Assembly: GCA_964457945.1 (NCBI GenBank)
Contig: CAYWFX010000003.1
Coordinates: 99,642 to 163,641 of the forward strand
Direction: 5' to 3'
Origin: an uncultured Syntrophomonas sp.
GTDB taxonomy: Bacteria > Bacillota > Syntrophomonadia > Syntrophomonadales > Syntrophomonadaceae
DNA: 64,000 nucleotides
This document shows, one piece after another, positions 26,997 to 62,938 of this stretch (the first letter of the stretch is position 1; each line of letters begins with the position of its first letter). The notes under the pieces were generated by a model. That model searched no databases. It had not been told where the DNA came from and worked only from the letters and a program-made list of their open reading frames with translations. The position numbers and the translations under genes are program-made.

Positions 26997-27908
26997 TTAT
27001 TCCCCCTCTGCGCATTGGCCAAGGCTATTTCTTTTATTCAAGAAATTAGTTCCGGCACAGATGGCTCCGGCAACGATAAAGGCTGCCCCGACTAGCTTTG
27101 CACTGGTCATAAGCTCTGTAGACCCAAAAGTATTAGGAATCAGTAAGGCAAGCACCAGGGTAACCACTGGCTCTGTAGAGGCCATTACCGTTACGGCGAT
27201 AGGGGATGCATATTTTTGCGAATACATCAGCATGATGTAGGCGTAAGCTTTGGCAAAAAAGGCTAACAGGAAAATATTGGCCAGGATTTCATTGGTATAA
27301 GTAACAGCAAAAAAGGTCTTAGGTTCCTCAATGAACCATAACCCAAAGCCAATAATAGCAGTAAAAAACATCTGCCCTATTCCGAGCAATAGTGGATCAC
27401 TTTTTTTGGCAAAGCTATCAACCGTAATTATATACATTGCCATGAAAAGGCAGGCCGCTGCCATAGCCAGAACACCGTAATTCACCGAATCTCCAGGCTT
27501 CAGGCCACTGGTACAAATAAGGCCGATCAAGATTAAAATAATACCTAACAGGTTGTTGGGACTGGGTTTGCGATTAAATAGGAGCAGCAGGAGGGGTACA
27601 AATACAATATTTAAAGATGCTACAAAGCTGGCTGTGGATGCCGGTATCCGCGTAATGCCAATCCTCTCGAGGATGAGATTTCCGCAAATAATAGCTGCCA
27701 GAATAAGACTTCTCTGTAAGGTTTTTTTATCAAACTCCTTAAGCCTTTTAAAAAATACAATGACTAAAATGAGGCTGGCAATCCCTGTTGTCATGGTCAA
27801 ATAGGCGAAGGGTGAGATAGAATCGGGAATATTCTTGATAAATATGTAAGACGCGGCCCAGCAAAGAGTAATGGAGAATAAAATAATATTGGACTCAGTT
27901 CGTGTCAT
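26997..27908 (-). CDS. EamA/DMT-superfamily transporter
   Basis: 303 aa with 10 hydrophobic helices arranged as two EamA repeats. Confidence 0.8.
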   Translation of the reverse strand: MTRTESNIILFSITLCWAASYIFIKNIPDSISPFAYLTMTTGIASLILVIVFFKRLKEFDKKTLQRSLILAAIICGNLILERIGITRIPASTASFVASLNIVFVPLLLLLFNRKPSPNNLLGIILILIGLICTSGLKPGDSVNYGVLAMAAACLFMAMYIITVDSFAKKSDPLLLGIGQMFFTAIIGFGLWFIEEPKTFFAVTYTNEILANIFLLAFFAKAYAYIMLMYSQKYASPIAVTVMASTEPVVTLVLALLIPNTFGSTELMTSAKLVGAAFIVAGAICAGTNFLNKRNSLGQCAEGE

Positions 27909-28333
27909 GGCCTGGTTCCCTCGTAAAAATCATAATTTACTTTTTCCTTTTCTATGAGTATGGAATTCTGATTAAGCTCTTGCAGAATCTCGTCCATGAT
28001 GGCTTTCATTTGCTGGTCGGTAGCATTATAAAATTCAATAACAAGGCTGTTTTCGTGGGTTATTACCCCTTTTTCATCCTTGTATGCACCTTTGCCGACA
28101 CGCGCTGTAAAACCATCCACATATTTCAAAGCGATGTTGCTTACCTTCTTCTCAGCTTCCTCGTATGAAATACGCTGTGTGTATGTGTCCTTATCATTCA
28201 GCCCTATATACATAGTGTATTTGAGCGCCTCGCTCTGCCCAAGACCTGTCTGCATTGTACAGCCAGAAAGCCCCGAGCATAATACAGTAATCAAAACAAT
28301 GGAAATAAGCAGGCTTCTTGTCATTTTCCACAT
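27905..28333 (-). CDS. Small lipoprotein, unknown function
   Basis: Lipobox LSGC at residues 22-25. Soluble alpha/beta-looking remainder. 4-nt overlap with the next gene. Confidence 0.6.
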   Translation of the reverse strand: MWKMTRSLLISIVLITVLCSGLSGCTMQTGLGQSEALKYTMYIGLNDKDTYTQRISYEEAEKKVSNIALKYVDGFTARVGKGAYKDEKGVITHENSLVIEFYNATDQQMKAIMDEILQELNQNSILIEKEKVNYDFYEGTRP

Positions 28334-28336
28334 GCT

Positions 28337-29458
28337 TTATTCAAACCTTCCATCTCTGCAAATTAAGCTTGGCAGCTTATTTACATCTACTACCATCGCA
28401 CCGCCTTTAGCAAAAGCAATATGCCTCCCTATGCCCTGATAGCCCTTTTCATCATGCATCGCCTTTGCTATTTTCGACGGCTCGTTTGTGTCCAGTCGTA
28501 CGGCAGTTTCTACAACCAACCTGATCATGTCATAACCCTGCACCGCCCATACATCTGCCTCTTTGCCGTATTTCTGCCGGTATCGCTCTTTGAATGCTTT
28601 AAGCTTTTCGCTTTCTTCAATTACCAGAGTAGACGGTACCATCATTCCCTCGGTTACTGATTTATTCTCAGCCAATGCATTGGCCCTGTTAAAAATAGGC
28701 TCGCCCATGACTGCTAAATTCTTGTCTTTACTGCGAAGCATTTTTAAGACCTCAAAAGCGCGGTCAAGACCATACTGAGAAATAACCACGCCATCCACTC
28801 CGAGAGCCTGCCAGCGGCTGTAAACGTTCTCAAATGCATTTGCCGAGGCAATTGACGGTACATAATCCACTATTTTAGTTTCAGTATTCAATAATTTAAG
28901 CTCAAAAGCTGTAACCAGTTCTTCCTGTGACTGCTTGCCGTTGTGATAGACGGCAATTCGCTTGAAGCCATTTTTCAAAGCATAATCCGCCATGGCCTGG
29001 CCTAAGTCTGAAAAAGCAGGCACACCACAAAAAATATTTGCGTTCTCTTTGGTAAATAGACTGTCATAGGCACCGTACGGAAACAGGATCAGCTTCCCAC
29101 TCCTGGTGAGTATATCCGCTGTGGTTTTGGAAACATCAAAATTTTGCAGATTAAAGACTGCAGTAACTCTATTGTCCTCCGCCACCCTGGTTGCCATTTC
29201 CACACCCTTTTCATAGAGGGCTTGGTCGTCAATAACTTCTATTTTTGTGTTAAACCCCTTGTCAGAATACTCCTTGTTTACATCCTCCACTGCCAGCTGC
29301 ACACCATTGATAAACGCTCCGTCAGCTGTCAGCCATGTGGCATCAGCCACGATTGGAATATAAATATCACGGCCACCGACTATTTCCTTATTACTGCATG
29401 ATATAGATATGAGACTTAGTGCAGTAATGAGGCATAAAATAAGCAGTTTTCTCATCAT
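28337..29458 (-). CDS. Periplasmic-binding-protein type I (Leu/Ile/Val-binding-like, Peripla_BP_6) lipoprotein, orphan
   Basis: Lipobox ISISC. The overall pattern fits LivJ-like solute-binding proteins. There are no adjacent permease or ATPase genes of that system. Start at ATG 29458 after GAAGGGGG. Confidence 0.7.
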   Translation of the reverse strand: MMRKLLILCLITALSLISISCSNKEIVGGRDIYIPIVADATWLTADGAFINGVQLAVEDVNKEYSDKGFNTKIEVIDDQALYEKGVEMATRVAEDNRVTAVFNLQNFDVSKTTADILTRSGKLILFPYGAYDSLFTKENANIFCGVPAFSDLGQAMADYALKNGFKRIAVYHNGKQSQEELVTAFELKLLNTETKIVDYVPSIASANAFENVYSRWQALGVDGVVISQYGLDRAFEVLKMLRSKDKNLAVMGEPIFNRANALAENKSVTEGMMVPSTLVIEESEKLKAFKERYRQKYGKEADVWAVQGYDMIRLVVETAVRLDTNEPSKIAKAMHDEKGYQGIGRHIAFAKGGAMVVDVNKLPSLICRDGRFE

Positions 29459-29512
29459 GACCCCCTTCTCAAGGTTAAACCTCATTCATTTTATTATGGG
29501 CAAATGGCTGTA

Positions 29513-31684
29513 CTAGCTGACCTGCCTTAGCGCAAACTCATAAAACAAACCCTTTTTCTCCATAAGCTCCGCAAAATCACCCTCTTCGGAGATTCTTCCC
29601 TTGTCCATTACAATGATTCTATCGCAGTTTTTAACGGTTGATAGACGATGAGCTATGACAATTCTGGTACAGCCCAGCTGCGCCAGGCTGTCTGCAACAT
29701 GCTTCTGGGTAATATTATCCAATGCGCTAGTCGCTTCATCAAAGAGCAGAATTTTGGGGTTTGAGACCAGTGCCCTGGCAATAAGTATTCTCTGGCGCTG
29801 TCCCCCGGATATGCCGCCGCTGCCCTCGCTAATTAAGGTGTGCATGCCCATGGGCATAGCCTTGATGTCTTCCTCTACCCCTGCCATGTTGGCTGCCCTC
29901 CAGGCATCGTCAAGGGTGCTCCAGGGCGAAGCGATGATTATATTAGAAAATATATCCCCTGAAAAGAGCTTGCCGTTTTGCAGAGCAGTTCCGATGCATT
30001 GACGCACTGAACGAACATCCAGAGTTTCCAAATCTGATCCGTCATAATAAACGGAACCCGCTTCTGGCTTCTCAAAGCCCAGCAGCAATCGCATGAGGGT
30101 TGATTTGCCGCAGCCGCTTTTCCCGACTATGGCGATGTATTCACCTGGGGTTACCTTTAAGTTTATATTATCAAGGGTGATCGGTCCGTCTTGGGTGTAT
30201 CGAAAGGTGGCATTTGATATTTCAATATTGCCGGAAAGCGCAGTAACAATCTGTTTGCTGGCGTCTACTTCAGGGACGGCCTCAAAAATAGGTTGGACCA
30301 TTTCCAGAAGCGGCTTTACGTTGGCAATGGTCATAATCACACCCGCCAGCGACATTATTGCTCCGCTGACGGCACCGTAGGCAATATTGAAAGCAATGTA
30401 GTCGGATTGGGAGATTTTATTCAGACCTGCAAAATAGTAGAGCAGCATTACGCCTCCTAGGGTAAGGGCTCCCGTTATTGCGGCGTTAAGCCGCAATAAC
30501 AGTGGAGGTGAAAACGTCAACCTACCGGTTTCCTTATATACCGCTGCCCATTTGGCAAAGGCTCGTTTTTCAGCGCCGGCCAACTTTACCTTTTGCAGAC
30601 CATTAAACAGCCCAAACACCAACCCGCTCATTTTCGCAGACAGCTTCATCTGTTTTTTAGATAGTTTTTGCTGCCATAGACCTGTTAAGATCGTAAAGAC
30701 ACACATGGTGATAATGACCAGCAGACCTGGAATAACCAGTGTCGGCGCAAAGCTTCCCATCTGAAAGATATAAACAAAGGAAAATAGAACTGAAAGCCCA
30801 GTTGTCAATACTGTATCCGAAAGCATAGAGCAAAGCTGATTAATACTCATAGCCCGGGTGCTTAGTTCCCCTGCCGTAAAATCTTTGAAGAAGGCTGCCG
30901 GCAAGGAAAATATCCTGGCCATAGCCGCGCTCTGCACAGAGAGGTTTATTTTGTCACGCAGCCTGGTCAAAACCAGGTTTCGTGTAATCCCAAACAAAGA
31001 CGAGCCTATAGCCACCCCAATTAAAAGGCCTGCTACAGGGAACACATCGCTTTTGGTTCCGCTGGGAATCACGTTGTTAAAAATCTGCTTGTTTACAAAA
31101 GGTATAAAAAGTCCCAGCAGGCTGACCAACAGGCTGGCACCAAGCACAAAAGCAATATCCGCTCTGGTAATGGAACGGAGAGCAAATAGACCCAGGTCCA
31201 GCAAATTAATTTTTTTGGCAGGCAATGCTGGGTAAAAGCAAAAAGCATCAGTATCCAGCTTTAACGCTGTTTTCCTGTTGACCTTCACCCGCTTTCCAGA
31301 CTCCCCATCGTAGAACATATAGCCGGATGGAAAGGCCGGAAGTATGGCTACCGCATCACCTTCTTTAGTACTGCCCAGCAAAACCCCGGTAGTATCCCGC
31401 CACCATTCCCCCACTAATTCCACACGCCTTCGCATCATCCCAGATGGACACAGCATATATTCAAGGCGGGCATTGATATCCTCTATTTCATCCGGCACCC
31501 GTGTTATTTTAACCCCGAGAGCAGACAACACCTCATTAATAGCGCTCTCTGCTGCCAACTCTTTTCCCTCAGCCAGCGTTTTATCCCTATCGTCGCCAAT
31601 GATGGAAAAAAGGTCCGAAAAGGCATTATCCATGGCCCTATTATCGTTTTCAAGACGTTTTTGCAGCTGCTCGCTGAATGCCAC
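29513..31684 (-). CDS. Bacteriocin/RiPP export ABC transporter, permease+ATPase, no peptidase domain (NHLM-type ABC2-like)
   Basis: 723 aa. About 150 aa of N-terminal extension, 6 TM helices, Walker A GKSGCGKST, signature ISGGQRQR, Walker B LLFDEATSALD. Confidence 0.85.
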   Translation of the reverse strand: MAFSEQLQKRLENDNRAMDNAFSDLFSIIGDDRDKTLAEGKELAAESAINEVLSALGVKITRVPDEIEDINARLEYMLCPSGMMRRRVELVGEWWRDTTGVLLGSTKEGDAVAILPAFPSGYMFYDGESGKRVKVNRKTALKLDTDAFCFYPALPAKKINLLDLGLFALRSITRADIAFVLGASLLVSLLGLFIPFVNKQIFNNVIPSGTKSDVFPVAGLLIGVAIGSSLFGITRNLVLTRLRDKINLSVQSAAMARIFSLPAAFFKDFTAGELSTRAMSINQLCSMLSDTVLTTGLSVLFSFVYIFQMGSFAPTLVIPGLLVIITMCVFTILTGLWQQKLSKKQMKLSAKMSGLVFGLFNGLQKVKLAGAEKRAFAKWAAVYKETGRLTFSPPLLLRLNAAITGALTLGGVMLLYYFAGLNKISQSDYIAFNIAYGAVSGAIMSLAGVIMTIANVKPLLEMVQPIFEAVPEVDASKQIVTALSGNIEISNATFRYTQDGPITLDNINLKVTPGEYIAIVGKSGCGKSTLMRLLLGFEKPEAGSVYYDGSDLETLDVRSVRQCIGTALQNGKLFSGDIFSNIIIASPWSTLDDAWRAANMAGVEEDIKAMPMGMHTLISEGSGGISGGQRQRILIARALVSNPKILLFDEATSALDNITQKHVADSLAQLGCTRIVIAHRLSTVKNCDRIIVMDKGRISEEGDFAELMEKKGLFYEFALRQVS

Positions 31685-31702
31685 TGAATTCTCCCCCTTA
31701 AG

Positions 31703-33847
31703 CTAATTGCTAATTAGTGCGGCATATTTACCGCCCATTTGCATTAGCTCTTCATGCCGGCCCCTTTCGGAAACCCCGCCTTGGTCCAATACGATGATCT
31801 CGTCGCAGTCCCGAATAGTGGAAAGCCGGTGGGCCACAATAATCAAAGTAATCCCCCTTGCTTTCACTGCTTCCATAATCAGCTGCTCGGTTTTGGCATC
31901 CAATGCGCTGGTGGCCTCGTCCAGTATGATAATGGACGGTTCCTGGGCCAGAGCCCTGGCTATTTCGAAACGCTGCCGCTGACCACCGGAGAAGTTTTTG
32001 CCGCTTTCCTGGATTATATGGGAGTATCCTCCCTCCCGCAGCATAATGTCCTCATGAATCTGGGCATCCTTACAGGAGGATACAATGACAGCCTCATCAA
32101 TAGATTGATCCCACATGGTAATATTATTTTCAATAGTATCCTCAAAAAGCACAATGTCCTGATCTACTACTGCCAGTGAACTTGTGAAGATACTCCGGTT
32201 GATTTCATTTTTAGGTAGTCCACCAAAACGAATTTCGCCGGACCATGGCTGATATAAGCCAGAAATGAGCTTGGCCAGTGTTGATTTGCCGCTGCCTGAA
32301 CCACCTACTAAAGCAACACTCCCACCCTGTAAAAGTTTAAGGGAAAAATCCTCAATTAAGGGTGGTGAAAGCTTGTTGTATCCGAAGGTAATATTTGCCA
32401 TCTCAATTTGTCCCGTAAGTTTTTCCAAGCATGTATCATCCAATTGGTTCTGTTCATTATCATCAACATCCGGCTGGTAATTCATTACATCCTCCACCCG
32501 CTCCATCTCTGAGCGCATCTCAATAAATGATTGTCCCACTCCCACCAGCTGATTGACTGGGGACAGGAAGGAGGATAAAAAGCCCTGGAAGGCTAAAAGC
32601 ATACCAATCGTAAACTCTCCGTCTAAAATAAGGTAAACGCCTATCATCAAAACAACGGTATTTGCTATCTGCTGTAATAGCGAAGGTATTATGCTGTAAA
32701 ACTGGTTGGCTTTAGCGAAGACAACCTGGGCATTCCCCTGCTTGGCAAAATACCCAGACCAGCGTTCAAAAAACCCGTTTTCCGCACCCGACGCTTTGAT
32801 GGTTTCAATCATCTCAAAGCCAGACATAGTGATACCTGCCAGCTTGCCGCCATCGCGCTGCATAACCCGACTCATATTGACCCTTTTCTTGGATACCATT
32901 CGCAGGACCAGCATATTGATCAGTGCGGCTCCAATTCCTACAAAGGATAACGTAACACTGTAACTAATCATCACCCCCAGGTAAAGCACTAAGAGGCATA
33001 CATTCATAAATATAGGTGCTATTTGGCCGATCAGGGTGGCGGCAATTGTTTCATTGCTCGCTTGCCTGGAGGCAATATCTCCGGCAAACCGTTGGGAGAA
33101 AAAATCCACCGGCAGGCGCAGCACATGCCACATAAAGGAAGCATTCGCTTCTATGGCCAGCTTGCCCTCGATTTTAAGCCAGTAAATACCCTGAATGATG
33201 CTCACCACAAACTGCAAAATGAGAACCAACAGCATAGCTCCAATAAACGGCATCAGCCACTCCGGGTTTTTACCCGATAGGATATTATCCATAAAAACTC
33301 GGGAGAAAAACGGGGTAATTATGCCAATTCCTGCTGTGAGGATACCGGTTAGTATTACAAAGGCAAAAGCTGCAGCCGTACCGCGCAGCCGTTTCTTCGC
33401 AAAGCCCCAGACGCTTTTGGGCTTGCCCTCGGCCACAAATTCCTCAGTTTTTTCAAAACGCAAAACTATTCCGGTAAAGCTTTTATCAAACTCCTCCAGA
33501 GTTACTTCAACTATGCCCCTGGCCGGATCATTCAACACCGCCTTATCCTTTTTAAAACCATTTAACACCACAAAATGATTGAAATTCCAGTGGATAATAG
33601 CAGGCAAAGCAATATCCCGAAGAGATGAGGGTTCCATACGGTAACCTGCAGCCTTCATTCCATACGCTCTTGCAGCCATTAATACGTTTTTAGCGCTGCT
33701 GCCGTCCCGGGATACACCGCAATCTGCGCGCACCTGCTCCAGAGGCAGCCATTTTCCATGATAGGCCAGTATCATACAGAGGGACGCTGCCCCGCACTCC
33801 AGGGCTTCCATCTGCATGACCACCGGCACTTTTATAACTTTTGACAT
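31703..33847 (-). CDS. Bacteriocin/RiPP export ABC transporter with N-terminal C39 double-glycine peptidase domain (NHLM-type ABC1-like)
   Basis: 714 aa. C39 catalytic region QMEALECGAASLCMIL...HFVVL, Walker A GGSGSGKST, signature FSGGQRQR, Walker B IILDEATSALD. Confidence 0.9.
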   Translation of the reverse strand: MSKVIKVPVVMQMEALECGAASLCMILAYHGKWLPLEQVRADCGVSRDGSSAKNVLMAARAYGMKAAGYRMEPSSLRDIALPAIIHWNFNHFVVLNGFKKDKAVLNDPARGIVEVTLEEFDKSFTGIVLRFEKTEEFVAEGKPKSVWGFAKKRLRGTAAAFAFVILTGILTAGIGIITPFFSRVFMDNILSGKNPEWLMPFIGAMLLVLILQFVVSIIQGIYWLKIEGKLAIEANASFMWHVLRLPVDFFSQRFAGDIASRQASNETIAATLIGQIAPIFMNVCLLVLYLGVMISYSVTLSFVGIGAALINMLVLRMVSKKRVNMSRVMQRDGGKLAGITMSGFEMIETIKASGAENGFFERWSGYFAKQGNAQVVFAKANQFYSIIPSLLQQIANTVVLMIGVYLILDGEFTIGMLLAFQGFLSSFLSPVNQLVGVGQSFIEMRSEMERVEDVMNYQPDVDDNEQNQLDDTCLEKLTGQIEMANITFGYNKLSPPLIEDFSLKLLQGGSVALVGGSGSGKSTLAKLISGLYQPWSGEIRFGGLPKNEINRSIFTSSLAVVDQDIVLFEDTIENNITMWDQSIDEAVIVSSCKDAQIHEDIMLREGGYSHIIQESGKNFSGGQRQRFEIARALAQEPSIIILDEATSALDAKTEQLIMEAVKARGITLIIVAHRLSTIRDCDEIIVLDQGGVSERGRHEELMQMGGKYAALISN

Positions 33848-33961
33848 AAGGATAGTTCTCCAGTTTCATTGTTACGTTGCAACGATTAGATCCCTAATCA
33901 TCTTTACCCTAATAATTGCTAACCACATCTTGGTCTTTGTCCGCCTGATTTGTTGTTCTGT

Positions 33962-34402
33962 TCAGCTAAAATACCCATATTCGCAGCTCACACATCGATT
34001 CATCGAGGCATAATGAGGATGATATTCATAGCCAGGACACACATATTTATCGCCGTTTCTCGTCGCCATCGCTTTTTTTATGTATTCTGGGTCCTCAAAT
34101 TTACTGCAGTGTATGCACCCAGAATAACGCATTTGCCCTTCGCCCCCAACCACCTGATCCAGATCCTCATCGGATAATTCTCCTTCCTTGAGAGATGCCT
34201 GAAACTCCTTCAATTCATCAATGCTAAATTCAAAGCCGGCTCCTTTAGCTATAGGTAGAATTTCGCGCTCAAATAATTTGTCTTTTTCCGCCTCTTCAAG
34301 TGTTTGCAGCTCACCTTTACTAACTACATCCACATACTTGCTCTTTAGATCACTGTTCATCTCCATTGACATAAAAAACCTCATTGCATTTTCTTTAGAC
34401 AT
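33962..34402 (-). CDS. Nif11-type leader RiPP precursor A (87-aa leader ending VVGG, 59-aa Cys/Tyr/His-rich core)
   Basis: The leader MSKENAMRFF..LPIAKGAGFEFSIDELKEF..LSDEDLDQVVGG matches the Nif11-like leader pattern. The GG codons are at 34142..34147. The core, at 33965..34141, is EGQMRYSGCIHC...CVSCEYGYFS. Confidence 0.85.
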   Translation of the reverse strand: MSKENAMRFFMSMEMNSDLKSKYVDVVSKGELQTLEEAEKDKLFEREILPIAKGAGFEFSIDELKEFQASLKEGELSDEDLDQVVGGEGQMRYSGCIHCSKFEDPEYIKKAMATRNGDKYVCPGYEYHPHYASMNRCVSCEYGYFS

Positions 34403-34459
34403 AAAATATTCCTCCTTTTAATTGTTATTCAATCCGCTTTTATTGAAAATCTCTGAGAA

Positions 34460-35353
34460 CTATTTCAACACCAATTCATATGGTCTGTAGTCTTTAACCA
34501 CAATCAACATATTGCAGCTAGTTCCTATGGAAAGCGGTGTGCTTTCACCTTTTTTGCTGGACCATTTGATTTTATTCTGGGATTCTGGATCAACGGTAAG
34601 AGTCACCCGCACTTCGACACTGCTTTCCTCGGGCATCAGTCCCTTGGCATACTGCATACTGCCAACTGCTGACAACACATCCGCTTCTGATACCGGATAA
34701 GTGCCAATGTTGGTGATGTGTCCAAGCATATAACCATATTCTTCACGAGGTGCAAAATCAGGAGATACCTGTACTTCCATCCCCTCTTTAAGCTTTTTCG
34801 CGGTTGAGGTTGGAATATAACAGATGATCTGCTTGTCATCAGCATATTTTTCCTGCTTGACGATTCCGGCAATAGCTTCGGTAGAAGAGACCGTTTCATT
34901 GACAGACTTAACTGAAAGAACAATCCCTGAAACAGGGGATACAATCAGGGAGCGGCTTTCATATTCGCTGGTCAAGGCAGAAATCAGTTTTTGATCGGGC
35001 TGGACATTATCTTTTAATTCGTTCAGCTGTTTTATGATATTTTCCTGAGGTATAACAGCAATAATCTGGCCCGCTTCTACAAAATCGCCAACTTTAACCC
35101 GCATATCGCTGATACGCCCACCAGCTGATGGTATAACCGCACTAGCACCACTTTGTGGAAATATCACCCCTTTAGCCCTAACGCTTTCGGGGATGTTTCC
35201 GTAATACCCCCAGAAACACACGGCAATCAGGAGGGCAAGACAAGCCATAAGAATGCTCCAGATCCCGGGATTTGTTATTTTTATGTATTCATTAAGCCTC
35301 TCCGGTGAGGATATGCGTTCCAGTGAAGATTTTCTGAAGATGCTGGGTTCCAT
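34460..35353 (-). CDS. HlyD-family secretion adaptor of the RiPP exporter
   Basis: 297 aa. N-terminal SSLERISSPERL box, a single TM helix, and barrel/lipoyl-like motifs (VKVGDFVEAGQIIAVI). Confidence 0.85.
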   Translation of the reverse strand: MEPSIFRKSSLERISSPERLNEYIKITNPGIWSILMACLALLIAVCFWGYYGNIPESVRAKGVIFPQSGASAVIPSAGGRISDMRVKVGDFVEAGQIIAVIPQENIIKQLNELKDNVQPDQKLISALTSEYESRSLIVSPVSGIVLSVKSVNETVSSTEAIAGIVKQEKYADDKQIICYIPTSTAKKLKEGMEVQVSPDFAPREEYGYMLGHITNIGTYPVSEADVLSAVGSMQYAKGLMPEESSVEVRVTLTVDPESQNKIKWSSKKGESTPLSIGTSCNMLIVVKDYRPYELVLK

Positions 35354-35652
35354 TCCGTCCCCTCCATTTTCCTAATTTGCCCTTTCTATAGATGCGAGTT
35401 ATGTCTAATCTTGTTCTAAAAGGACGAATAATGTTCGATATGTAATTTTATTATATACGAATCAGATTTATATTGGGGGAAATATCTATGCCAAAAAACC
35501 ACTGGAAGTGCACGGCCTAACGGATCACAATAATTTAAACATTTGACATCTGCCTGTCACACACAAACAAAGTCGCCCCAATGCCATGAATTAAGAAGCG
35601 ACTCTATAATCTCATCATTAAAATACCTATTCTTGAAAAAAGATTGGTAACA

Positions 35653-37050
35653 TTAAGAGGGTTTTAGATACAACTGTTTTATTTTATCTTCATATTTATT
35701 CTTAAAGAAATAGCAGGTATATTCGTCGCAGCCAAGGTACTCATTGCAGGAAATTAGAGCTCCTGCACGGCATCCGCCGCCGCAATACAGTTTGTGCTCA
35801 CAGGCACTGCACTTTTCATTTGCATTCAATAAATCAACTAGCCTTGTATCGATGCGCCGGAGGTAGGTGGAATCGGACAAAGCCTTTAACAAGCCAATTT
35901 CCATGATATTCGGCATCTCCTCCTGGATTGGCATGCCTGTCAATGGAATGCAAGGCAGAAGCTTTCCGTCAGCGGCAATATACATCGTATTACGAGCACT
36001 ACCGCAGATGGTCTGTCTAAGCATTCTTTCGCTTCCATCAAATTTTTTACAGGGAATGTTGTAGTTGTCACTGCCTTTCTTACAATAAAAAAATCCACCC
36101 AGCATTATATTTATCGGTGCACCGGCACTTCTGTACTTCTGGATAAAGCCCAGATAGGCCTCATATATCTCCCTGACATCCAAATTATATTGACCCTGCT
36201 CTTTCAACCACTCGCCGGCATCACTTGCCGGGCTGACTTTCCAGCTTCGTACTCCAAGTTCAGCCAACAGGTAGAGTGTGGGTTCCAACACATGAATGTT
36301 TCCTTTATGCACCGCAGTCTCAATGCCAACTGGAAAGCCGTGGGCCCTCAGCAGCTTTATTGCATCAACCGCTTTTTTTTCAGCTCCGTCTACACCACGC
36401 ATCCAGTCATGACAACCCACACCGTCGAAGCTCAGGTTGAATTCCGGCTTTACCTGCCTTTTTTCCAGTTCTGACAAAAGAAGCTCGTCGACCAGTACTC
36501 CATTGGTATAAATCTGACTGATGACTATTTTTTGGGCAAGCAAAGCATCCACGATACTTAGAAAATCTTTGCGGACGAGAGGCTCGCCTCCGGTCAGGGA
36601 TACTTTACCAATACCGGCTTCTGACAACTGCTGTACAATACTCATGCACTCACTGTAGGACAGTTCACCGTACTTTGCCTGGGGTGCAGACATAAAGCAG
36701 TGGCGGCAGCGCAGATTGCACTTTCCGGTAATGGACCAGTGAGCCCGGGTAATAAACCTGCTTGGTATATACCGGTACTTCTGTTCCTCTTTAAGCTCAT
36801 CAGCATAGCTGTACTCATCTAATATACCTTTTTCATTTAAATCTCTGATGATATCCTTGTGAATTGGCAGTATAAGGGGGCTTTCAGTATCCATTTGTCC
36901 ATCGCAAAATGAAACTGCCTGAAAACTTATATCATCAAGAAAGGAGGTTTTGCCTGTTTGTGTATCCTGTATAGCATAGGGAAGCCGCTCCCACCCCCTG
37001 AGCACAAACCTATCCTTAAGCTTATAAAACACTTGGTCCATTCCTTTCAT
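35653..37050 (-). CDS. Radical SAM / SPASM-domain peptide maturase
   Basis: CNLRCRHC (CxxxCxxC) at about residue 110, SLTGGEPL, and C-terminal auxiliary-cluster cysteines (CGSARN.., CSACEHKLYCGGGCRAG). The roughly 100-aa N-terminal domain could be a leader-recognition element. Confidence 0.85.
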   Translation of the reverse strand: MKGMDQVFYKLKDRFVLRGWERLPYAIQDTQTGKTSFLDDISFQAVSFCDGQMDTESPLILPIHKDIIRDLNEKGILDEYSYADELKEEQKYRYIPSRFITRAHWSITGKCNLRCRHCFMSAPQAKYGELSYSECMSIVQQLSEAGIGKVSLTGGEPLVRKDFLSIVDALLAQKIVISQIYTNGVLVDELLLSELEKRQVKPEFNLSFDGVGCHDWMRGVDGAEKKAVDAIKLLRAHGFPVGIETAVHKGNIHVLEPTLYLLAELGVRSWKVSPASDAGEWLKEQGQYNLDVREIYEAYLGFIQKYRSAGAPINIMLGGFFYCKKGSDNYNIPCKKFDGSERMLRQTICGSARNTMYIAADGKLLPCIPLTGMPIQEEMPNIMEIGLLKALSDSTYLRRIDTRLVDLLNANEKCSACEHKLYCGGGCRAGALISCNEYLGCDEYTCYFFKNKYEDKIKQLYLKPS

Positions 37051-37068
37051 AAAAAGTAACGCAATTAA

Positions 37069-37112
37069 TAAACCTTCAAACTAAATAAAAAATCTATCAG
37101 TCTGAAGGTTTA
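37069..37112 (-). promoter_or_regulatory. Stem-loop between precursor B and the rSAM gene (possible partial terminator/processing site)
   Basis: AAACCTTCA ... TGAAGGTTT is a 9-bp perfect stem with an A/T-rich loop of about 26 nt. No clear U-run follows. Confidence 0.4.
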
Positions 37113-37168
37113 TAGATTAAGCGAAACAGTTAATGGATTGCTTGACGGGTTTCCTATTTCCCTCAAGT

Positions 37169-37564
37169 TTACCCAATGCCAGCAAGAAAACAAGAGCAAT
37201 ATTCATCGTCACCATCATCAGGAGCTGAACCACCCCCGGCTAAGCCACATACACATTTACCACCTTCGCCACTCGCATAGCCACCAATTACACATCCACA
37301 ATCGACACCGCCGGCAACTGCTTCCAGTTCATCATCGGAAAGCGGACTACTAGTTATTTCCCTGGCATATTCCTTCAATTCACTAAGAGTAAATTCATAA
37401 CCCGCCTCTTTGGCAATAGGAATTATTTTGCTATCCAGAATTCCGTCAAGTTGTTCCTCAGTGGAATTTTGATCAAAACTACCATTGATTACTTTAAATT
37501 TTGTTTTTAGGGCTTCGTTTTTTGCAAGCTCAGTGTAGAAAAGTTTTACATTTTCCTTTGACAT
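37169..37564 (-). CDS. Nif11-type leader RiPP precursor B (leader ending AVAGG, 45-aa Gly/Cys-rich core with three CxC motifs)
   Basis: MSKENVKLFYTELAKNEALKTKF..IPIAKEAGYEFTLSELKEY..LSDDELEAVAGG. The GG codons are at 37307..37312. The core, at 37172..37306, is VDCGCVIGGYASGEGGKCVCGLAGGGSAPDDGDDEYCSCFLAGIG. The start is placed at the second ATG so that both precursors begin MSKEN. Confidence 0.85.
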   Translation of the reverse strand: MSKENVKLFYTELAKNEALKTKFKVINGSFDQNSTEEQLDGILDSKIIPIAKEAGYEFTLSELKEYAREITSSPLSDDELEAVAGGVDCGCVIGGYASGEGGKCVCGLAGGGSAPDDGDDEYCSCFLAGIG

Positions 37565-37801
37565 AAGTTTCCACATCCTTTCGAAGTTTAGGTTATTTTA
37601 TTTAGTTCTTCATTAATATATAAAATTCCTTTTATTTCGAAAGATTCATTGTATTTTTGTGTCGTATTTAACATTATAATGTCGCAAAATAGTATTTAAG
37701 TAGCTAGCGATGCTCTCTATATCTGTAAAAAAATATGGCACGGAGGGCACAGAGGTTTCTAAAAAGTCGGTTATAACAACCGAAAAGCCATGAGATAAGT
37801 G

Positions 37802-42882: not shown

Positions 42883-44265
42883 TCAACCATTATAAGTAGC
42901 GGCTTTTTTATAATCGAGCAAGCTGTCGAGTAAAGCTTCCTCTATCAGCATTTTCTCCATAATTACTTCCTTGATTTTTTTCGAGTCATTCTTGCACTCG
43001 GTTACTATCTGCGCAGCTTTGTCGTATCCGATATAGGGTGTAAGCGCAGTTAGGATAACCAGTGACTGCTCCAGATGTTCCAGGCACTTGTCCCGATTGG
43101 CGGCAAGCGGTTCAATGCATCTTGTTCTGAACAAGGCAACCGCTTCTGTCAGCTGTGAAAGGCTTTCCAACAAACAATCGGCGATCAGCGGCATAAACGC
43201 GTTGAGTTCAAAGTTCCCGTTAGCTGCACTGAATGTGATTGCCGTGTCATTCGCCATTACTTTTATTGCTACCTGGGTCACCATTTCGGGTATGACGGGA
43301 TTCACCTTACCCGGCATAATGGTGCTTCCCATTTGTAATTCTTTAAGCGTTATTTCTCCGAAACCACCGCAGGGTCCTGAATTCATCAGTCGTAAGTCGG
43401 TAGATATTTTCATAAGATTCACAGCCAGTGCCTTAAGCAGTCCTGAAACCTCCACAAAAACATCATTATTTTGCGTAATATCCATCGGAAACTCCGCTCT
43501 GGCAATTCCTATGTCAGTGAGCTCTCTTAAAACCTCAATTACTTTGTAGCTATATTTACGGTTTATGTTACTGCCTGTTCCGACCGCCGTTCCGCCGAGA
43601 TTAACTTGACGCAGGCGTTCCTCAACCTTATAAATCCGCCAGCGGTCGCGTGCAATCGCCTGTGCATAAGCGCCGAATTCCTGCCCGAGCGTGATCGGCA
43701 TCGCATCCATGAGTTCGGTGCGCCCCAGCTTGTAAACATCTGCGAATTCGCTTTCTTTTTTTTGCAGTGATTCCTGCAGCTTTGCACATTCATCGCTTAA
43801 TAAGCGAACCATCTCGATGGCCGCAATGCGCAGAGCGGTTGGATATACATCGTTGGTTGACTGTCCTTTGTTAACATCGTCAAGCGGATGGATGACCGCA
43901 TACTCACCGCATTTTCTGCCCTGAGACAGCAGGGCAAGGTTGGCTATTACCTCATTGACATTCATATTAGTAGAAGTGCCGGCCCCACCCTGCAAAGCGT
44001 TGGTCACAAAAGCAGCGTCGGCTTTTCCGCTTAGAATGGTATCACATGCATCGATAATCGCTTCTGCTTTTTGGCTCTCAATAAGGTTCAGTTCACGATT
44101 GGCGATGGCAGCGGCCTTTTTTACCATGACTATCGCATATATTAGTTTTAAGCTGACACATTTGTCACCTACGGCAAAATTATCTACAGCTCTTTGGGTT
44201 TGTATGCCATATAATTTATCGTCAGAAAGTATGACCGTGCCGATTTTATCACTTTCAGTACGCAT
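42883..44265 (-). CDS. Aspartate ammonia-lyase/class-II fumarase family protein, last gene of the hyd maturation operon
   Basis: GSTIMPGKVNPV (GSSxMPxKxNP signature), TNDVYPTA, and SKIGR-like regions. Start at ATG 44265 with GGAGGA inside the hydF 3' end, 4 nt after the hydF stop. Confidence 0.85.
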   Translation of the reverse strand: MRTESDKIGTVILSDDKLYGIQTQRAVDNFAVGDKCVSLKLIYAIVMVKKAAAIANRELNLIESQKAEAIIDACDTILSGKADAAFVTNALQGGAGTSTNMNVNEVIANLALLSQGRKCGEYAVIHPLDDVNKGQSTNDVYPTALRIAAIEMVRLLSDECAKLQESLQKKESEFADVYKLGRTELMDAMPITLGQEFGAYAQAIARDRWRIYKVEERLRQVNLGGTAVGTGSNINRKYSYKVIEVLRELTDIGIARAEFPMDITQNNDVFVEVSGLLKALAVNLMKISTDLRLMNSGPCGGFGEITLKELQMGSTIMPGKVNPVIPEMVTQVAIKVMANDTAITFSAANGNFELNAFMPLIADCLLESLSQLTEAVALFRTRCIEPLAANRDKCLEHLEQSLVILTALTPYIGYDKAAQIVTECKNDSKKIKEVIMEKMLIEEALLDSLLDYKKAATYNG

Positions 44266-44269
44266 AGAA

Positions 44270-45475
44270 TCAATCCTCCAGAGACATCGCAATATACGGG
44301 AAAGGCTCTATGCTGCGCTTCAATATCCCCTGCATATAGGCGATAAGAATACCGTAATTAGTAATGGGAATATTTTGATCCTGCGCACATTGCTGTCTGT
44401 ATTTCATTTCCCGCTCGTTTAACATACAGCCGCCACAATGGACGATCAGTTTGTATTTCGACAGATCAACAGGAAACTCTGTGCCTGAGCTGAACTCAAA
44501 ATTCAACTGTTTACCGGTGTGCTGCTTTATCCAGCGAGGGACCTTGACTGTGCCTATATCATCGCACTGGCGGTGATGGGTGCACCCCTCCGAAATCAGA
44601 ACAGCGTCACCATCATCGAGATAATCAATTGCTTTGGCGCCCTTAACAGCCAGCTCCAGGTTACCCTTGTAGCGTGCAAACAGGATCGAAAAAGAAGTCA
44701 ACAGAATATCTCTGGGCGTGTCGGCAGAAACCTTGGCAAACACTTGACTATCAGTGATGACAAGCTTCGGCTTTTTACCCAGCGAATCCAGCGTTTGCCG
44801 AAGCTCATATTCTTTGACAACTATTGCGGTTGCGTCGGCCTCAAGAATATCCCGAATGGTTTGCTGCTGTGGAAGAATAAGTCTTCCTTTCGGCGCCGCC
44901 TTGTCGATCGGTACGACCAAGACCACAAAATCTGAAGGTTCAATAAGATCCGCAACTATACGGAGCTTTGATTCTTCGCTGACAGACAATTTTGCGATAC
45001 GTTCCTTCAGTTCATGGATGTGAAAGAGTGTTTTTGCACTCACCCATATTTCATGCTCCGATACAATATGGGTATCATTGCGCAAATCTGACTTGTTATA
45101 TGCAATAATGTAGTTTATATTCTTGCGCTTGAAGCTGTCGATCAACTCATCATCAATAATTGTTTTGCCGACTGTTCCGTCGATGACCAGAACTGCTACA
45201 TCAGTCTTATTTAATACCTGCAGGCTCCTTTTTACGCGCAAACTGCCAAGTTCACCCTCATCATCAATTCCTGGGGTGTCGATAATCATTACCGGACCAA
45301 GCGGCAGCAGCTCCATGGCCTTATATACAGGGTCGGTGGTAGTTCCCTTAACATCCGAAACGATTGCAATATTTTGACCAGTAACAGCATTGACAACGCT
45401 GGATTTCCCAGCATTTCGTTTACCAAAAAAAGCAATATGTACGCGATCGGATGATGGAGTGTTGTTTAAGCTCAT
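44270..45475 (-). CDS. hydF: [FeFe]-hydrogenase maturation GTPase HydF
   Basis: G1 GKRNAGKSS, G3 DTPG, G4 NKSD, and C-terminal cluster ligands CTHH..HCGGC. Confidence 0.9.
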   Translation of the reverse strand: MSLNNTPSSDRVHIAFFGKRNAGKSSVVNAVTGQNIAIVSDVKGTTTDPVYKAMELLPLGPVMIIDTPGIDDEGELGSLRVKRSLQVLNKTDVAVLVIDGTVGKTIIDDELIDSFKRKNINYIIAYNKSDLRNDTHIVSEHEIWVSAKTLFHIHELKERIAKLSVSEESKLRIVADLIEPSDFVVLVVPIDKAAPKGRLILPQQQTIRDILEADATAIVVKEYELRQTLDSLGKKPKLVITDSQVFAKVSADTPRDILLTSFSILFARYKGNLELAVKGAKAIDYLDDGDAVLISEGCTHHRQCDDIGTVKVPRWIKQHTGKQLNFEFSSGTEFPVDLSKYKLIVHCGGCMLNEREMKYRQQCAQDQNIPITNYGILIAYMQGILKRSIEPFPYIAMSLED

Positions 45476-45487
45476 GCCACACCTCCG

Positions 45488-62732: not shown

Positions 62733-62888
62733 TCATCCACATGTATAGCCTTTTACTAACGCATATTACTATTCGCCTTTGTAGCTATACTAACGGTTGT
62801 GACAACCGGGGGGCACCCGCCGAATCATTCGATAAACCCCCTCCTCGTCACCCGGCCTTCAACTAACGGTTCTGCCGGGTCAGGCGCT
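62733..62888 (-). ncRNA. glmS ribozyme: glmS ribozyme (GlcN6P-dependent self-cleaving riboswitch)
   Basis: The minus strand reads A/GCGCCUGACCCGGCAGAACC...GACGAGGAGGGGGUUUAUCGAAUGAUUCGGCGGGUGCCCCCCGGUUGUCACAACCG.... This matches the conserved core of Bacillus/Thermoanaerobacter glmS ribozymes, including the A/GCGCC cleavage site (62888/62887). Confidence 0.9.
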
Positions 62889-62938
62889 TGCAAGTATCGA
62901 TTCTGAATTCCTCCTTTATTAGGTTTTTAGTCTTACTC

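What the first reader, a model, noticed from the sequence alone, without database searches (positions are those of the whole stretch)
29513..37576. RiPP gene cluster: two unrelated Nif11-leader precursors, one rSAM/SPASM maturase, and the HlyD + C39-ABC + ABC export trio
On the minus strand the gene order is precursor B, radical-SAM/SPASM enzyme, HlyD-like adaptor, precursor A, C39-peptidase ABC transporter, and a second ABC transporter. Both precursors have long leaders that match the Nif11-type leader pattern (MS.E..K.F...........IAKEAG(F/Y)EF(S/T)..ELKE....LSD(E/D)(D/E)L..V(V/A)GG). The exporter trio is the set known to accompany NHLP/Nif11-leader peptides (TIGRFAM NHLM-type HlyD/ABC1/ABC2, from memory). 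The cores are entirely different from each other. The only tailoring enzyme visible is an rSAM/SPASM protein, which implies thioether (sacti- or ranthipeptide-like) or other radical cross-links rather than lanthionine or azole chemistry. I cannot match either core to a characterised RiPP.
Basis: partly seen in the sequence, partly recalled or inferred. Interest (0 to 1): 0.75.

Follow-up and report, generated by a model that had tools for sequence, protein, structure and literature searches.

The report
Nif11-leader sactipeptide-like cluster, two cargo modules
This is a real bacterial gene cluster for secreted peptides in which a radical-SAM enzyme most likely staples one precursor into three small sulfur-bridged hairpins, while the second, unrelated precursor seems only to borrow the shared export pump; it is an uncharacterised variant of a known kind of system, not a new kind.

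Summary
Six minus-strand genes encode two Nif11-leader precursors, an rSAM/SPASM enzyme and the NHLM HlyD/C39-ABC/ABC export trio; the precursors and the trio score above curated cut-offs.

Related loci show two separable modules.

1. Precursor B plus the rSAM. Every rSAM homolog at 53% identity or more has a B-type precursor next to it. B-type cores carry a sharp repeat, C-x-C-x3-G-x-G, usually three times. It occurs 259 times in 120 precursors against about 2 in shuffles. It mirrors the StsA (CxCxCx4GxGxG) and BlaA (CxCx4GxG) motifs, where nested Cys-S-to-Gly-Cα sactionine hairpins were shown experimentally (PMC10288494). The enzyme is nevertheless not a StsB-family member and matches no curated rSAM equivalog.

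2. Precursor A plus the exporter. In close relatives (about 86% DNA identity) precursor A sits between the same HlyD and ABC genes with no rSAM nearby. In one locus it has only a 20-residue double-glycine leader.

Best reading: precursor B becomes a predicted triple-hairpin sactipeptide, and precursor A is rSAM-independent cargo. Both are probably cut after GG and exported. The chemistry is inferred, not shown.

It is a new variant of a known kind, of moderate interest.

The parts
37169..37564 (-). Precursor B (131 aa from the second ATG; the ORF extends to 37576). It has an 86-aa Nif11-type leader ending LSDDELEAVAGG. The 45-aa core is VDCGCVIGGYASGEGGKCVCGLAGGGSAPDDGDDEYCSCFLAGIG, with three CxCx3G(x)G units.
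   Evidence: TIGR03798 47.5 bits, cut-off 32.3. PF07862 39.3 bits. Identical protein P0135 is called as 131 aa. Ribosome-binding site AAAGGA lies before the second ATG. Motif analysis.
37063..37118 (-). Strong RNA hairpin in the 118-nt gap between the precursor B stop and the rSAM start. It is followed by a U-rich stretch and is a possible attenuator or mRNA stabiliser that sets the precursor:enzyme ratio.
   Evidence: Inverted repeat with 20-nt arms. MFE -26.8 kcal/mol, z -6.65, 0 of 200 shuffles as stable. A comparable hairpin is in L085 but not in L087, L002 or L004, so it is not a family-wide feature.
35653..37050 (-). Radical SAM/SPASM peptide maturase (465-aa ORF; the probable start is GTG at 37032, giving 459 aa). 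It has an N-terminal domain of about 100 aa that resembles an RRE (RiPP recognition element), a CX3CX2C motif and a full seven-Cys SPASM.
   Evidence: PF04055 74.4 bits. Best NCBIfam hit is ScmE at 125 bits, cut-off 400, and no equivalog is reached by any of 24 family members. Cys conservation. AF2 model has pLDDT 90.4. Foldseek top hits are CteB, SuiB and SkfB. The PDB profile search aligns full length only to CteB.
35354..35509 (-). Region upstream of HlyD that is conserved with the rSAM-less relatives. It marks the boundary of the preB-rSAM module and is a likely promoter or regulatory region of the exporter operon.
   Evidence: About 86% DNA identity to L088/L089/L090 begins at window 35485-35509. 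The stretch 35377-35496 is duplicated in L088 in front of its precursor-A paralogs.
34460..35353 (-). NHLM-type HlyD-like membrane-fusion protein. It is a short form (297 aa against a 421-position model) with one N-terminal TM helix.
   Evidence: TIGR03794 203.5 bits, cut-off 156.2, matched in two stretches.
33962..34402 (-). Precursor A (146 aa). It has an 87-aa Nif11-type leader ending LSDEDLDQVVGG. The 59-aa core has five Cys (CxxC...CP...HPH...CxxC).
   Evidence: TIGR03798 40.4 bits. Only 8 homolog clusters were found. C99, C122, P123, C137, C140, D104 and K110 are invariant. An exhaustive core search found only the same small family.
31703..33847 (-). Peptidase-containing ABC transporter (C39 + TMD + NBD), NHLM ABC1. 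It is predicted to cut both leaders after GG and export the cores.
   Evidence: TIGR03796 973 bits, cut-off 853.3. PF03412 123 bits.
29513..31684 (-). Second ABC transporter subunit (NHLM ABC2) with no recognisable peptidase domain.
   Evidence: TIGR03797 759.8 bits, cut-off 709.4. Its N-terminal 176 aa give no Pfam hit even at E<=10.

Best explanation
The locus is a composite of two cargo modules that share one export machine.

Module 1 (window about 35510-37800) is precursor B plus its dedicated rSAM/SPASM maturase. The enzyme is proposed to bind the Nif11-type leader through its N-terminal RRE-like domain. It would then use 5'-deoxyadenosyl radical chemistry and its two auxiliary Fe-S clusters to join each Cys sulfur to the alpha-carbon of a downstream Gly. 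This gives a nested pair of sactionines per CxCx3GxG unit (first Cys to the Gly at +8, second Cys to the Gly at +6). In the window the predicted links are C18-G26 and C20-G24, C37-G45 and C39-G43, and C5-G9 with C3 going to A11 or G8. The product would be three tandem mini-hairpins, up to six thioethers and -12 Da.

Module 2 is precursor A embedded in the HlyD/ABC1/ABC2 operon. It is a Cys-rich 59-residue cargo that does not depend on this rSAM. It may be unmodified, or held by disulfides or a metal.

The C39 domain of ABC1 is expected to cut both leaders after the GG, and ABC1/ABC2/HlyD export both cores.

Shown here: gene content, family assignments, the co-occurrence pattern, the motif and the module boundaries. 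Inferred: the enzyme-substrate pairing, the thioether chemistry and topology, the cleavage site, the export and the biological activity.
For: Gene and family assignments are above curated cut-offs.

Pairing of the rSAM with B-type precursors:
- All rSAM homologs at 53% identity or more that have flanking DNA carry adjacent B-type precursors. These are the window, L012, L082/83, L084, L085, L086, L087, L091 and L092. L004 (42%) does too.
- They come from different phyla.

Motif:
- In 41 repeats from 14 cores, Gly is at +6 in 39/41 and at +8 in 39/41.
- C.C.{3}G.G occurs 259 times in 120 precursor clusters against about 1.9 in shuffles. 68 of the 120 have three or more repeats.

Experimental precedent (PMC10288494):
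- StsB converts CxCxCx4GxGxG into nested Cys2-Gly15, Cys4-Gly13 and Cys6-Gly11 sactionines.
- BlaB makes Cys13-Gly22 and Cys15-Gly20.

Enzyme:
- StsB is the second-best NCBIfam hit of the window enzyme.
- The family has Tyr/Phe, Thr and Ser at three of the paper's catalytic-site-proximity positions, as StsB does.
- By fold and profile it is closest to the thioether and cross-link maturases CteB, SuiB and SkfB.

Independence of precursor A:
- L089, L090 and L104 have HlyD-preA-ABC1-ABC2 with no rSAM within the fetched flanks.
- L103 has the A-type core on a 20-aa GG leader with its own ribosome-binding site.
- L087 has rSAM plus a B-type precursor plus the trio, without precursor A.
- DNA homology to the rSAM-less relatives runs from window 26226 to about 35500 and stops there.
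Against: - No chemistry was measured, so the sactionine assignment rests on motif analogy.
- The enzyme is not in the StsB/MftC clade (106.8 bits, cut-off 625). If the chemistry is the same it may be convergent.
- The loop is 3 residues rather than 4, and the first repeat in the window has Ala, not Gly, at +8.
- More distant family members (34-45% identity) sit next to cores without the motif (WCx5C..H, single-Cys cores). One locus shows only Cys-free cores in the DNA available (L005, whose contig ends at the rSAM). The family's chemistry may therefore be broader than Cys-Gly.
- Precursor A's leader is as similar to B-type leaders (31-51%) as B-type leaders are to each other (31-68%), so leader recognition by the rSAM cannot be excluded.
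- Absence of an rSAM within 10 kb in relatives does not exclude a maturase encoded elsewhere, as is known for prochlorosins.
- The N-terminal domain gives no Pfam RRE/PqqD hit.
Confidence: 0.6

Rival explanations
1. One promiscuous rSAM/SPASM enzyme recognises the shared Nif11-type leader and modifies both precursor A and precursor B, as ProcM does with many prochlorosin cores. The six genes would then form a single two-product RiPP cluster.
For: - Both precursors lie in the same strand run beside the only tailoring enzyme.
- The leaders are 39-40% identical, within the range seen among bona fide B-type leaders.
- Distant family members sit next to longer CxC/CxxC-containing cores (L007, L097), so the family can accept diverse cores.
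Against: - Precursor A homologs occur with the exporter and without this rSAM in five related loci. One of them has only a 20-aa leader.
- rSAM plus a B-type precursor occur without precursor A in L087 and in all other family loci.
- The A core lacks the CxCx3GxG unit and has no significant similarity to any core found next to family rSAMs.
- The window's A leader is no closer to B leaders than A leaders from rSAM-less loci are.
Confidence: 0.2
2. The rSAM does act on precursor B but performs a different reaction from Cys-to-Gly sactionine formation. Candidates are non-alpha (ranthipeptide-type) thioethers to the hydrophobic residues in the loop, epimerisation of the Val/Ile/Leu residues, or oxidation of Cys (anSME-like). 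The invariant glycines would then serve only as conformational elements.
For: - The enzyme is not a member of any characterised sactisynthase family.
- Its fold neighbours include the ranthisynthase CteB, the C-C cross-linker SuiB, the epimerase EpeE and anSME.
- Function cannot be read from full-length similarity in this superfamily, as PMC10288494 itself stresses.
- Distant homologs accompany cores without the GxG part.
Against: - Cys spacing and Gly spacing are equal (two residues each) and both are nearly invariant. This is exactly what nested Cys-Gly hairpins need, and it was shown for StsA and BlaA.
- The single-Cys variants keep a C-x3-G unit (L085, L002).
- The loop residues are variable, which argues against them being specific acceptors.
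Confidence: 0.25
3. Precursor A is a genuine RiPP substrate, but its maturase is encoded elsewhere in the genome or varies between strains. The B12-rSAM next to the A-type paralogs in L088 is one candidate. Alternatively the core is a metal-binding (Cys4, zinc-ribbon-like) or disulfide-locked secreted mini-protein rather than an unmodified bacteriocin.
For: - Cys99, Cys122, Cys137, Cys140, Pro123 and an HPH motif are conserved while the rest of the core diverges.
- The A gene is only about 70% identical at the DNA level where its neighbours are about 86% identical.
- L088 places a B12-rSAM and a 485-aa unknown protein just upstream of three A-type paralogs.
- L103 places a GNAT and two clear CxxC...CxxC precursors beside the A-type core.
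Against: - AF2 gives no confident fold for the core (pLDDT 31-56).
- L089, L090 and L104 show no tailoring gene at all near the A gene.
- The L088 B12-rSAM has its own 96-aa Nif11 precursor directly upstream of it.
Confidence: 0.3

Closest known systems
StsA/StsB (Streptomyces sparsogenes) and BlaA/BlaB hairpin sactipeptides (Precord et al. 2023, PMC10288494; He et al. 2022, cited there)
   Same: The core motif has equally spaced Cys and Gly (CxC(xC)...GxG(xG)), and the maturase is an rSAM/SPASM enzyme. The experimentally shown product is a set of nested Cys-S-to-Gly-Cα thioethers forming a hairpin. StsB is among the best NCBIfam hits of the window enzyme.
   Different: - The window enzyme scores 106.8 bits against a 625-bit cut-off, over the rSAM core only, so it is not in the StsB/MftC clade.
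- Its N-terminal domain is fused, whereas StsB uses a separate RRE protein (StsC).
- The leader is a long Nif11 domain with a GG site, and export is by the NHLM trio.
- The loop is 3 residues, not 4.
- The unit is repeated three times in tandem rather than being a single hairpin.
- The hosts are anaerobic Firmicutes and other phyla, not actinomycetes.
CteB/CteA (SCIFF ranthipeptide maturase, PDB 5WGG/5WHY)
   Same: This is the best structural and full-length profile match. The architecture is the same: an N-terminal peptide-binding domain, the rSAM barrel and a SPASM domain with two auxiliary clusters. The substrate is also a Cys-rich core.
   Different: Only 17% identity. SCIFF precursors are about 45 aa with short leaders and Cys-to-Thr Cγ links. 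The window enzyme does not reach any ranthipeptide model (PapB 61.6 bits, cut-off 340).
NHLP/Nif11 precursor families with the TIGR03794/03796/03797 export trio (Haft, Basu & Mitchell 2010, PMC2887384)
   Same: Both precursors and all three transport proteins are members by curated cut-offs. A long leader ends in GG and is followed by a Cys/Gly-rich core, as that paper describes.
   Different: That paper linked these precursors to cyclodehydratases and LanM enzymes. An rSAM/SPASM partner with a CxCx3GxG core is not described there. Letzel et al. 2014 (PMC4289311) only noted uncharacterised Nif11 clusters with rSAM genes in anaerobes.
Prochlorosins/ProcM (one enzyme, many Nif11-leader cores)
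   Same: Nif11 leaders have hypervariable cores, several precursors occur per locus in relatives, and the leader is kept while the core diverges.
   Different: Prochlorosin chemistry is lanthionine formation by LanM. Here the comparative data argue against one enzyme serving both core types.
Double-glycine-leader class II bacteriocins exported by peptidase-containing ABC transporters
   Same: For precursor A, the GG leader end has hydrophobic residues at -4, -7 and -12, and the gene is embedded in the transporter operon. No tailoring enzyme is present in relatives, and a 20-aa leader version exists (L103).
   Different: In most members the leader is an 87-aa Nif11 domain. The core is Cys-rich (five conserved Cys) and is not amphipathic or hydrophobic like typical class II bacteriocins. 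No immunity gene was recognised.

Membership tests
Nif11-like leader peptide RiPP precursor (TIGR03798 / PF07862) | Profile score above the curated cut-off | tested here: met
   Precursor B scores 47.5 bits and precursor A 40.4 bits against a 32.3-bit cut-off. PF07862 gives 39.3 and 30.6 bits against 23.8.
Nif11-like leader peptide RiPP precursor (TIGR03798 / PF07862) | The leader ends in a Gly-Gly cleavage motif, followed by a variable Cys/Gly-rich core | tested here: met
   The leaders end ...LSDDELEAVAGG|VDCGC... and ...LSDEDLDQVVGG|EGQMRY.... [quoted passage not shown]
NHLM bacteriocin export trio (TIGR03794, TIGR03796, TIGR03797) | All three equivalog models are above cut-off and the genes are adjacent | tested here: met
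   203.5 bits against 156.2, 973 against 853.3, and 759.8 against 709.4. The genes are contiguous with precursor A between HlyD and ABC1.
NHLM bacteriocin export trio (TIGR03794, TIGR03796, TIGR03797) | ABC1 carries a C39 peptidase domain and ABC2 lacks it | tested here: met
   PF03412 scores 123 bits on ABC1 residues 7-135. The ABC2 N-terminal 176 aa give no Pfam hit at E<=10. Cleavage itself was not tested.
Radical SAM / SPASM peptide maturase | CX3CX2C SAM-cluster motif plus the seven-Cys SPASM motif (CX9-15GX4C ... CX2CX5CX3C ... C) | tested here: met
   C111/C115/C118 are present. C349-x12-G-x4-C367, C414-x2-C417-x5-C423-x3-C427 and C446 are all conserved in 24/24 homologs. PF04055 scores 74.4 bits. 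PF13186 scores only 19.1 bits against 21.5.
Radical SAM / SPASM peptide maturase | Fused RiPP recognition element (PqqD-like winged helix) | tested here: inconclusive
   Residues 1-103 give no Pfam hit at E<=10. However, the profile aligns full length (21-448) to CteB, which has an N-terminal RRE. Foldseek alignments to CteB and SuiB span about 485 columns. The model shows a beta-sheet plus helices at residues 8-80 with pLDDT of about 95.
Sactipeptides (class) | Cys sulfur to acceptor alpha-carbon thioether in the product | not testable with these tools
   This needs MS/NMR of the modified peptide. Only the motif analogy to StsA/BlaA is available.
StsB-family sactipeptide maturase (NF045574) | Profile score above the curated cut-off | tested here: not met
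   106.8 bits against 625, covering residues 98-285 only. All 24 family members are below cut-off.
StsB-family sactipeptide maturase (NF045574) | Substrate core with equally spaced Cys and Gly (CxC(xC)x4GxG(xG)) | tested here: met
   The motif is CxCx3GxG, with Gly at +6 and at +8 in 39/41 repeats each. It occurs 259 times against about 2 expected. The loop is one residue shorter than in StsA/BlaA.
Ranthipeptide maturases (PapB NF047865; SCIFF/CteB type) | Profile score above cut-off; CX3D/E or SCIFF-type core | tested here: not met
   PapB scores 61.6 bits against 340. The core has no CX3[DE] periodicity. CteB resemblance is at the fold level only, with 17% identity.
Spliceases / nif11-class rSAM maturase 3 (TIGR04103) | Profile above cut-off; XYG motif in the core | tested here: not met
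   96 bits against 725. Precursor B has no YG. Precursor A has EYG, but the Tyr is not conserved in its homologs.
SynChlorMet cassette ScmE (TIGR04250), the best NCBIfam hit | Profile above cut-off | tested here: not met
   125 bits against 400. The best among 24 members is E 7.5e-38, still far below cut-off.

The most novel reading that the evidence does not exclude
The CxCx3GxG-repeat Nif11 peptides and their dedicated SPASM maturase would be a distinct, widespread RiPP family spanning several phyla and well over a hundred 90%-identity clusters. Its enzyme would have arrived at Cys-Gly hairpin stapling independently of the StsB/MftC clade, or would perform a cross-link not yet described, producing a 'beads-on-a-string' peptide of three tandem bicyclic hairpins. 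In addition, the exporter operon in this lineage would act as a cargo-swapping platform onto which unrelated precursor/enzyme modules are plugged.
Probability: 0.35. Interest if true: 0.65.

Novelty: new variant of a known kind. Interest (0 to 1): 0.5.

Why it matters
If the prediction holds, it extends the recently found Cys-Gly hairpin sactionine chemistry in three ways. It would apply beyond one actinobacterial enzyme clade to an unrelated SPASM family that is common in anaerobes, including rumen MAGs. It would be linked to Nif11 leaders and PCAT export. It would yield a tandem triple-hairpin scaffold that could be useful for peptide engineering.

It also gives a clean natural experiment on modularity. 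Closely related strains keep the same exporter but carry different cargo: precursor A alone, A paralogs plus a B12-rSAM module, a B-type precursor plus SPASM rSAM, or both. This warns against assuming that every precursor near a maturase is its substrate.

The finding does not reveal a new kind of system. Its value is a well-defined, testable enzyme-substrate pair.

Tried and rejected
1. Zinc-ribbon fold for the precursor A core. AF2 on the 9-sequence alignment gave pLDDT 31-56 for the core, so no fold claim is made and no fold search was run on it.

2. A 'Rosetta-stone' link between A-type and B-type cores. It was suggested by P0177 and P0180, where B-type repeats are fused to CxxC...CxxC tails, and by L007, L097 and L084. 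Pairwise scores against shuffles were not significant (z -0.2 to 1.8). Only the true paralog in L088 scored (z 3.7). Rejected.

3. An exhaustive search for relatives of the A core found only its own small family plus spurious short matches in giant repeat proteins.

4. Pfam on the isolated rSAM N-terminus and on the ABC2 N-terminus gave no hits even at E<=10.

5. The genome-contig scan with the alignment-derived patterns was swamped by generic rSAM motifs. Only 11 of 80 loci were true family members.

6. Composition and direct repeats at the module borders showed no clear insertion scar. The only direct repeat is a 17-nt pair at 82% identity, and GC differs little (0.417 against 0.446).

7. 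The hairpin after precursor B as a family feature. It is present in the window and in L085 only.

8. Leader convergence test. The window's A leader is not closer to B leaders than A leaders of rSAM-less loci are, so the test is uninformative for substrate choice.

9. Catalytic-site proximity profiling as in PMC10288494. I could map only positions 1, 2 and 4 with confidence (Y/F119, T153, S207). The reference set and scoring matrix are not available, so this is not decisive.

10. Public names and organism.

11. Nine literature searches found no paper characterising this enzyme family or core. He et al. 2022 (BlaA/BlaB) and the supplement of PMC10288494 are not held. I therefore cannot exclude that this group is one of the 'six new predicted sactipeptide groups' mentioned there.

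Full report
**Observation.**
- Both small ORFs pass the curated Nif11-leader model TIGR03798 (47.5 and 40.4 bits, cut-off 32.3) and Pfam Nif11.
- The three transport genes pass the NHLM equivalogs: TIGR03794 (203.5 against 156.2), TIGR03796 (973 against 853.3) and TIGR03797 (759.8 against 709.4).
- ABC1 carries a C39 peptidase domain (123 bits).
- The 465-aa enzyme has the radical-SAM CX3CX2C motif and a complete seven-cysteine SPASM motif. All of these cysteines are conserved in 24/24 homologs.
- No other Nif11-leader ORF exists in the 64-kb window.
- The flanking genes add no tailoring enzyme. They are a Peripla_BP_6 lipoprotein, DUF3574, EamA, TetR regulators, an RND pump, a 1426-aa CoA-dehydratase-activase fusion, aspartase/fumarase and HydF/HydG-like genes.

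**The enzyme.**
- No curated family claims it. The best NCBIfam hit is ScmE at 125 bits (cut-off 400), followed by the sactisynthase StsB at 106.8 bits (cut-off 625). None of 24 family members reaches any cut-off.
- It nevertheless belongs to a large, well-conserved family. The top 120 clusters are 46-71% identical over the full length. They carry source names from Clostridia, Acidobacteria, Desulfotomaculum, Coriobacteriales/Raoultibacter and Dysgonomonas.
- Further members lie in Ruminococcaceae, Christensenella, Synergistaceae, Selenomonadales and Atopobiaceae MAGs.
- A profile of the family finds SkfB, SuiB, PqqE and CteB among solved structures. Only CteB aligns over the whole length, including the N-terminal domain.
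- A confident AF2 model (pLDDT 90.4) has CteB, SuiB, SkfB, ChlB, PqqE and anSME as its closest folds.
- The N-terminal 100 residues look like a fused peptide-binding domain but give no Pfam RRE hit.

**Which precursor belongs to the enzyme.** I collected the neighbourhoods of 30 or so family members and scanned them with a leader HMM.
- Every homolog at 53% identity or more has one to three precursors of the precursor-B type beside it. These are the window, L012, L082/83, L084, L086, L087, L091 and L092. L085 carries a single-Cys variant.
- L004 at 42% identity does as well.
- More distant members (34-45%) accompany other Cys-containing Nif11 cores.
- Fourteen B-type cores give 41 repeats with the pattern C-x-C-[VIFM]-[LVFI]-[AG]-G-x-G. 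Gly is at +6 in 39/41 and at +8 in 39/41. There are usually three repeats per core, separated by Gly/Asp-rich linkers.
- A profile search with ten such precursors found 578 hits. Of the best 120 clusters, 68 have three or more exact C.C.{3}G.G units and 21 have two.
- The unit occurs 259 times against about 1.9 in shuffled cores.
- None of these proteins carries a name more specific than 'Nif11-like leader peptide'.

**Precursor A behaves differently.**
- It has only eight homolog clusters. An exhaustive search with the core alone finds nothing beyond them.
- Its core keeps C99, C122-P123, C137 and C140, and in most members C96 and an HPH motif.
- In L089, L090 and L104 an A-type gene sits between the same 297-aa HlyD and ABC1/ABC2. 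Those transport genes are 88-92% identical to the window's. The same Peripla_BP_6, DUF3574, EamA and QueT genes follow, and no rSAM lies in the fetched flanks.
- In L088 three A-type paralogs follow a different inserted module: a 96-aa Nif11 peptide, a 485-aa unknown protein and a B12-rSAM.
- In L103 the A-type core has only a 20-residue double-glycine leader with its own ribosome-binding site. It lies next to a GNAT and two CxxC...CxxC precursors.
- Conversely, L087 carries the trio together with rSAM plus a B-type precursor, at a different position (between Peripla_BP_6 and DUF3574), and has no A gene.
- At the DNA level the window is about 86% identical to L088/L089/L090 from position 26226 up to 35485-35509. 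That endpoint is 130-155 bp upstream of the HlyD start, and there the homology ends.

The 2.3-kb stretch 35510-37800 holding precursor B and the rSAM is therefore a separate module in this lineage.

**Mechanism for module 1.** The equal two-residue spacing of the two Cys and the two Gly suggested nested Cys-to-Gly links. The literature then supplied a direct precedent.
- Precord et al. 2023 (PMC10288494) showed that StsB converts the CxCxCx4GxGxG core of StsA into three nested Cys-S-to-Gly-Cα sactionines (C2-G15, C4-G13, C6-G11). The evidence was mass loss, iodoacetamide labelling, NaBD4 desulfurisation and C-to-A/G-to-S variants.
- The same paper reports that BlaA carries C13-G22 and C15-G20 links, shown by NMR.
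- The window's unit is the BlaA unit with a loop one residue shorter, repeated three times.
- I therefore predict C18-G26/C20-G24, C37-G45/C39-G43, and C5-G9 with C3 to A11 or G8. That is up to six thioethers.
- The family's residues at three of the published catalytic-site-proximity positions (Y/F after the CX3CX2C motif, T before GGE, S207) equal those of StsB. I could not run the full profiling.
- The enzyme is not a StsB-family member, so this says 'works like', not 'is a'.

**Module 2 and export.**
- For precursor A, the best-supported reading is cargo that needs only the peptidase-transporter. It occurs without the rSAM, one version has a minimal leader, and it lacks the CxCx3GxG unit.
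- Whether the five conserved Cys form disulfides or bind a metal is open. AF2 gave no confident fold.
- Both leaders end in L-S-D-x-x-L-x-x-V-x-G-G, with hydrophobic residues at -4, -7 and -12. From established knowledge of C39 transporters, this is the recognition pattern. Cleavage and export are inferred.
- A very stable hairpin (-26.8 kcal/mol, z -6.65) lies between precursor B and the rSAM. It may tune the precursor:enzyme ratio. It recurs in L085 but not in other loci.

**Caveats.**
- The A leader is as similar to B leaders as B leaders are to each other, so the rSAM might still bind it.
- A maturase for precursor A could be encoded elsewhere in the genome.
- Distant family members accompany cores without GxG, so the chemistry may be broader than Cys-Gly.
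- No literature on this specific family was found in nine searches. The supplement of PMC10288494 and He et al. 2022 were not available, so the group may already be listed there as a prediction.

**Verdict.** This is a real and correctly described cluster. The cluster is an uncharacterised variant of known systems (Nif11-leader RiPPs, hairpin sactipeptides, PCAT export), with a sharply defined and testable enzyme-substrate pair.

Noticed in passing
window 62733-62899 (-): A glmS ribozyme/riboswitch (RF00234, 99.1 bits, gathering score 37) lies directly upstream of the glmS gene at 60752-62656. In L088 the glmS homolog lies only about 2.4 kb from the HlyD gene, whereas in the window it is about 25 kb away. 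The region upstream of the exporter operon is therefore rearranged between relatives.
   Followed up: partly
window 35377-35496; L088 9824-9943: The stretch just upstream of the HlyD gene is duplicated (78% identity) in L088 in front of its precursor-A paralogs. This looks like a reused promoter or regulatory element. No motif was defined.
   Followed up: no
window 34460-35353: The HlyD-like adaptor is only 297 aa against a 421-position model and matches it in two stretches (1-~110 and 228-416). It seems to lack the central coiled-coil part. L086 has a 432-aa version with an OEP gene nearby.
   Followed up: no
window 33971-34418 compared with its flanks: The precursor A gene is only about 70% identical to L089/L090 at the DNA level, while the genes on both sides are 85-86% identical. 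The cargo gene evolves faster than its exporter, yet the Cys residues stay invariant.
   Followed up: partly
L103 1219-3152: In this relative the exporter carries three different cargo genes and a GNAT acetyltransferase. Two are precursors with a different leader and clear CxxC...CxxC cores. The third is the A-type core on a 20-aa leader.
   Followed up: partly
L088 5836-9809: A 96-aa Nif11 precursor (core VVLGEAKAVLVG), a 485-aa protein with no Pfam domain and a 706-aa B12-binding rSAM are inserted between the HlyD gene and the A-type precursors. This is a different RiPP module plugged into the same operon.
   Followed up: no
L094 1401-3963: Seven tandem Nif11-leader precursors lie upstream of a 41%-identical rSAM. 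One has a Cys-free core, five have a single Cys followed by Gly within a few residues, and only the last has a CxC unit. They may be minimal one-link substrates of the same enzyme family.
   Followed up: no
P0177, P0180: Two precursors combine B-type Cys/Gly units with a C-terminal CxxC...CxxC aromatic tail. The tail is not significantly similar to precursor A.
   Followed up: yes
L086 114-10581; L085 2384-6510: In other phyla the same rSAM/B-type pair shares a locus with further Nif11 precursors. In L086 these have very hydrophobic cores and lie with YcaO/TfuA and an asparagine-synthase-like gene. In L085 they lie with a LanM. These are multi-chemistry Nif11 islands.
   Followed up: no
window 42883-46906 (-): An aspartase/fumarase-family lyase, HydF and a BATS-domain rSAM (HydG/HydE-like) lie upstream. 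They are [FeFe]-hydrogenase maturation genes, consistent with a strictly anaerobic Firmicutes-like host. They are unrelated to the RiPP cluster.
   Followed up: no
window 27905-29485 (-): The Peripla_BP_6 protein and the DUF3574 protein both begin with lipoprotein-like signal peptides. They follow ABC2 with 27-bp and 3-bp gaps, and this arrangement is kept in L088-L090 and L104. Those loci are close relatives, so the synteny does not show a functional link. More distant clusters lack these genes.
   Followed up: partly
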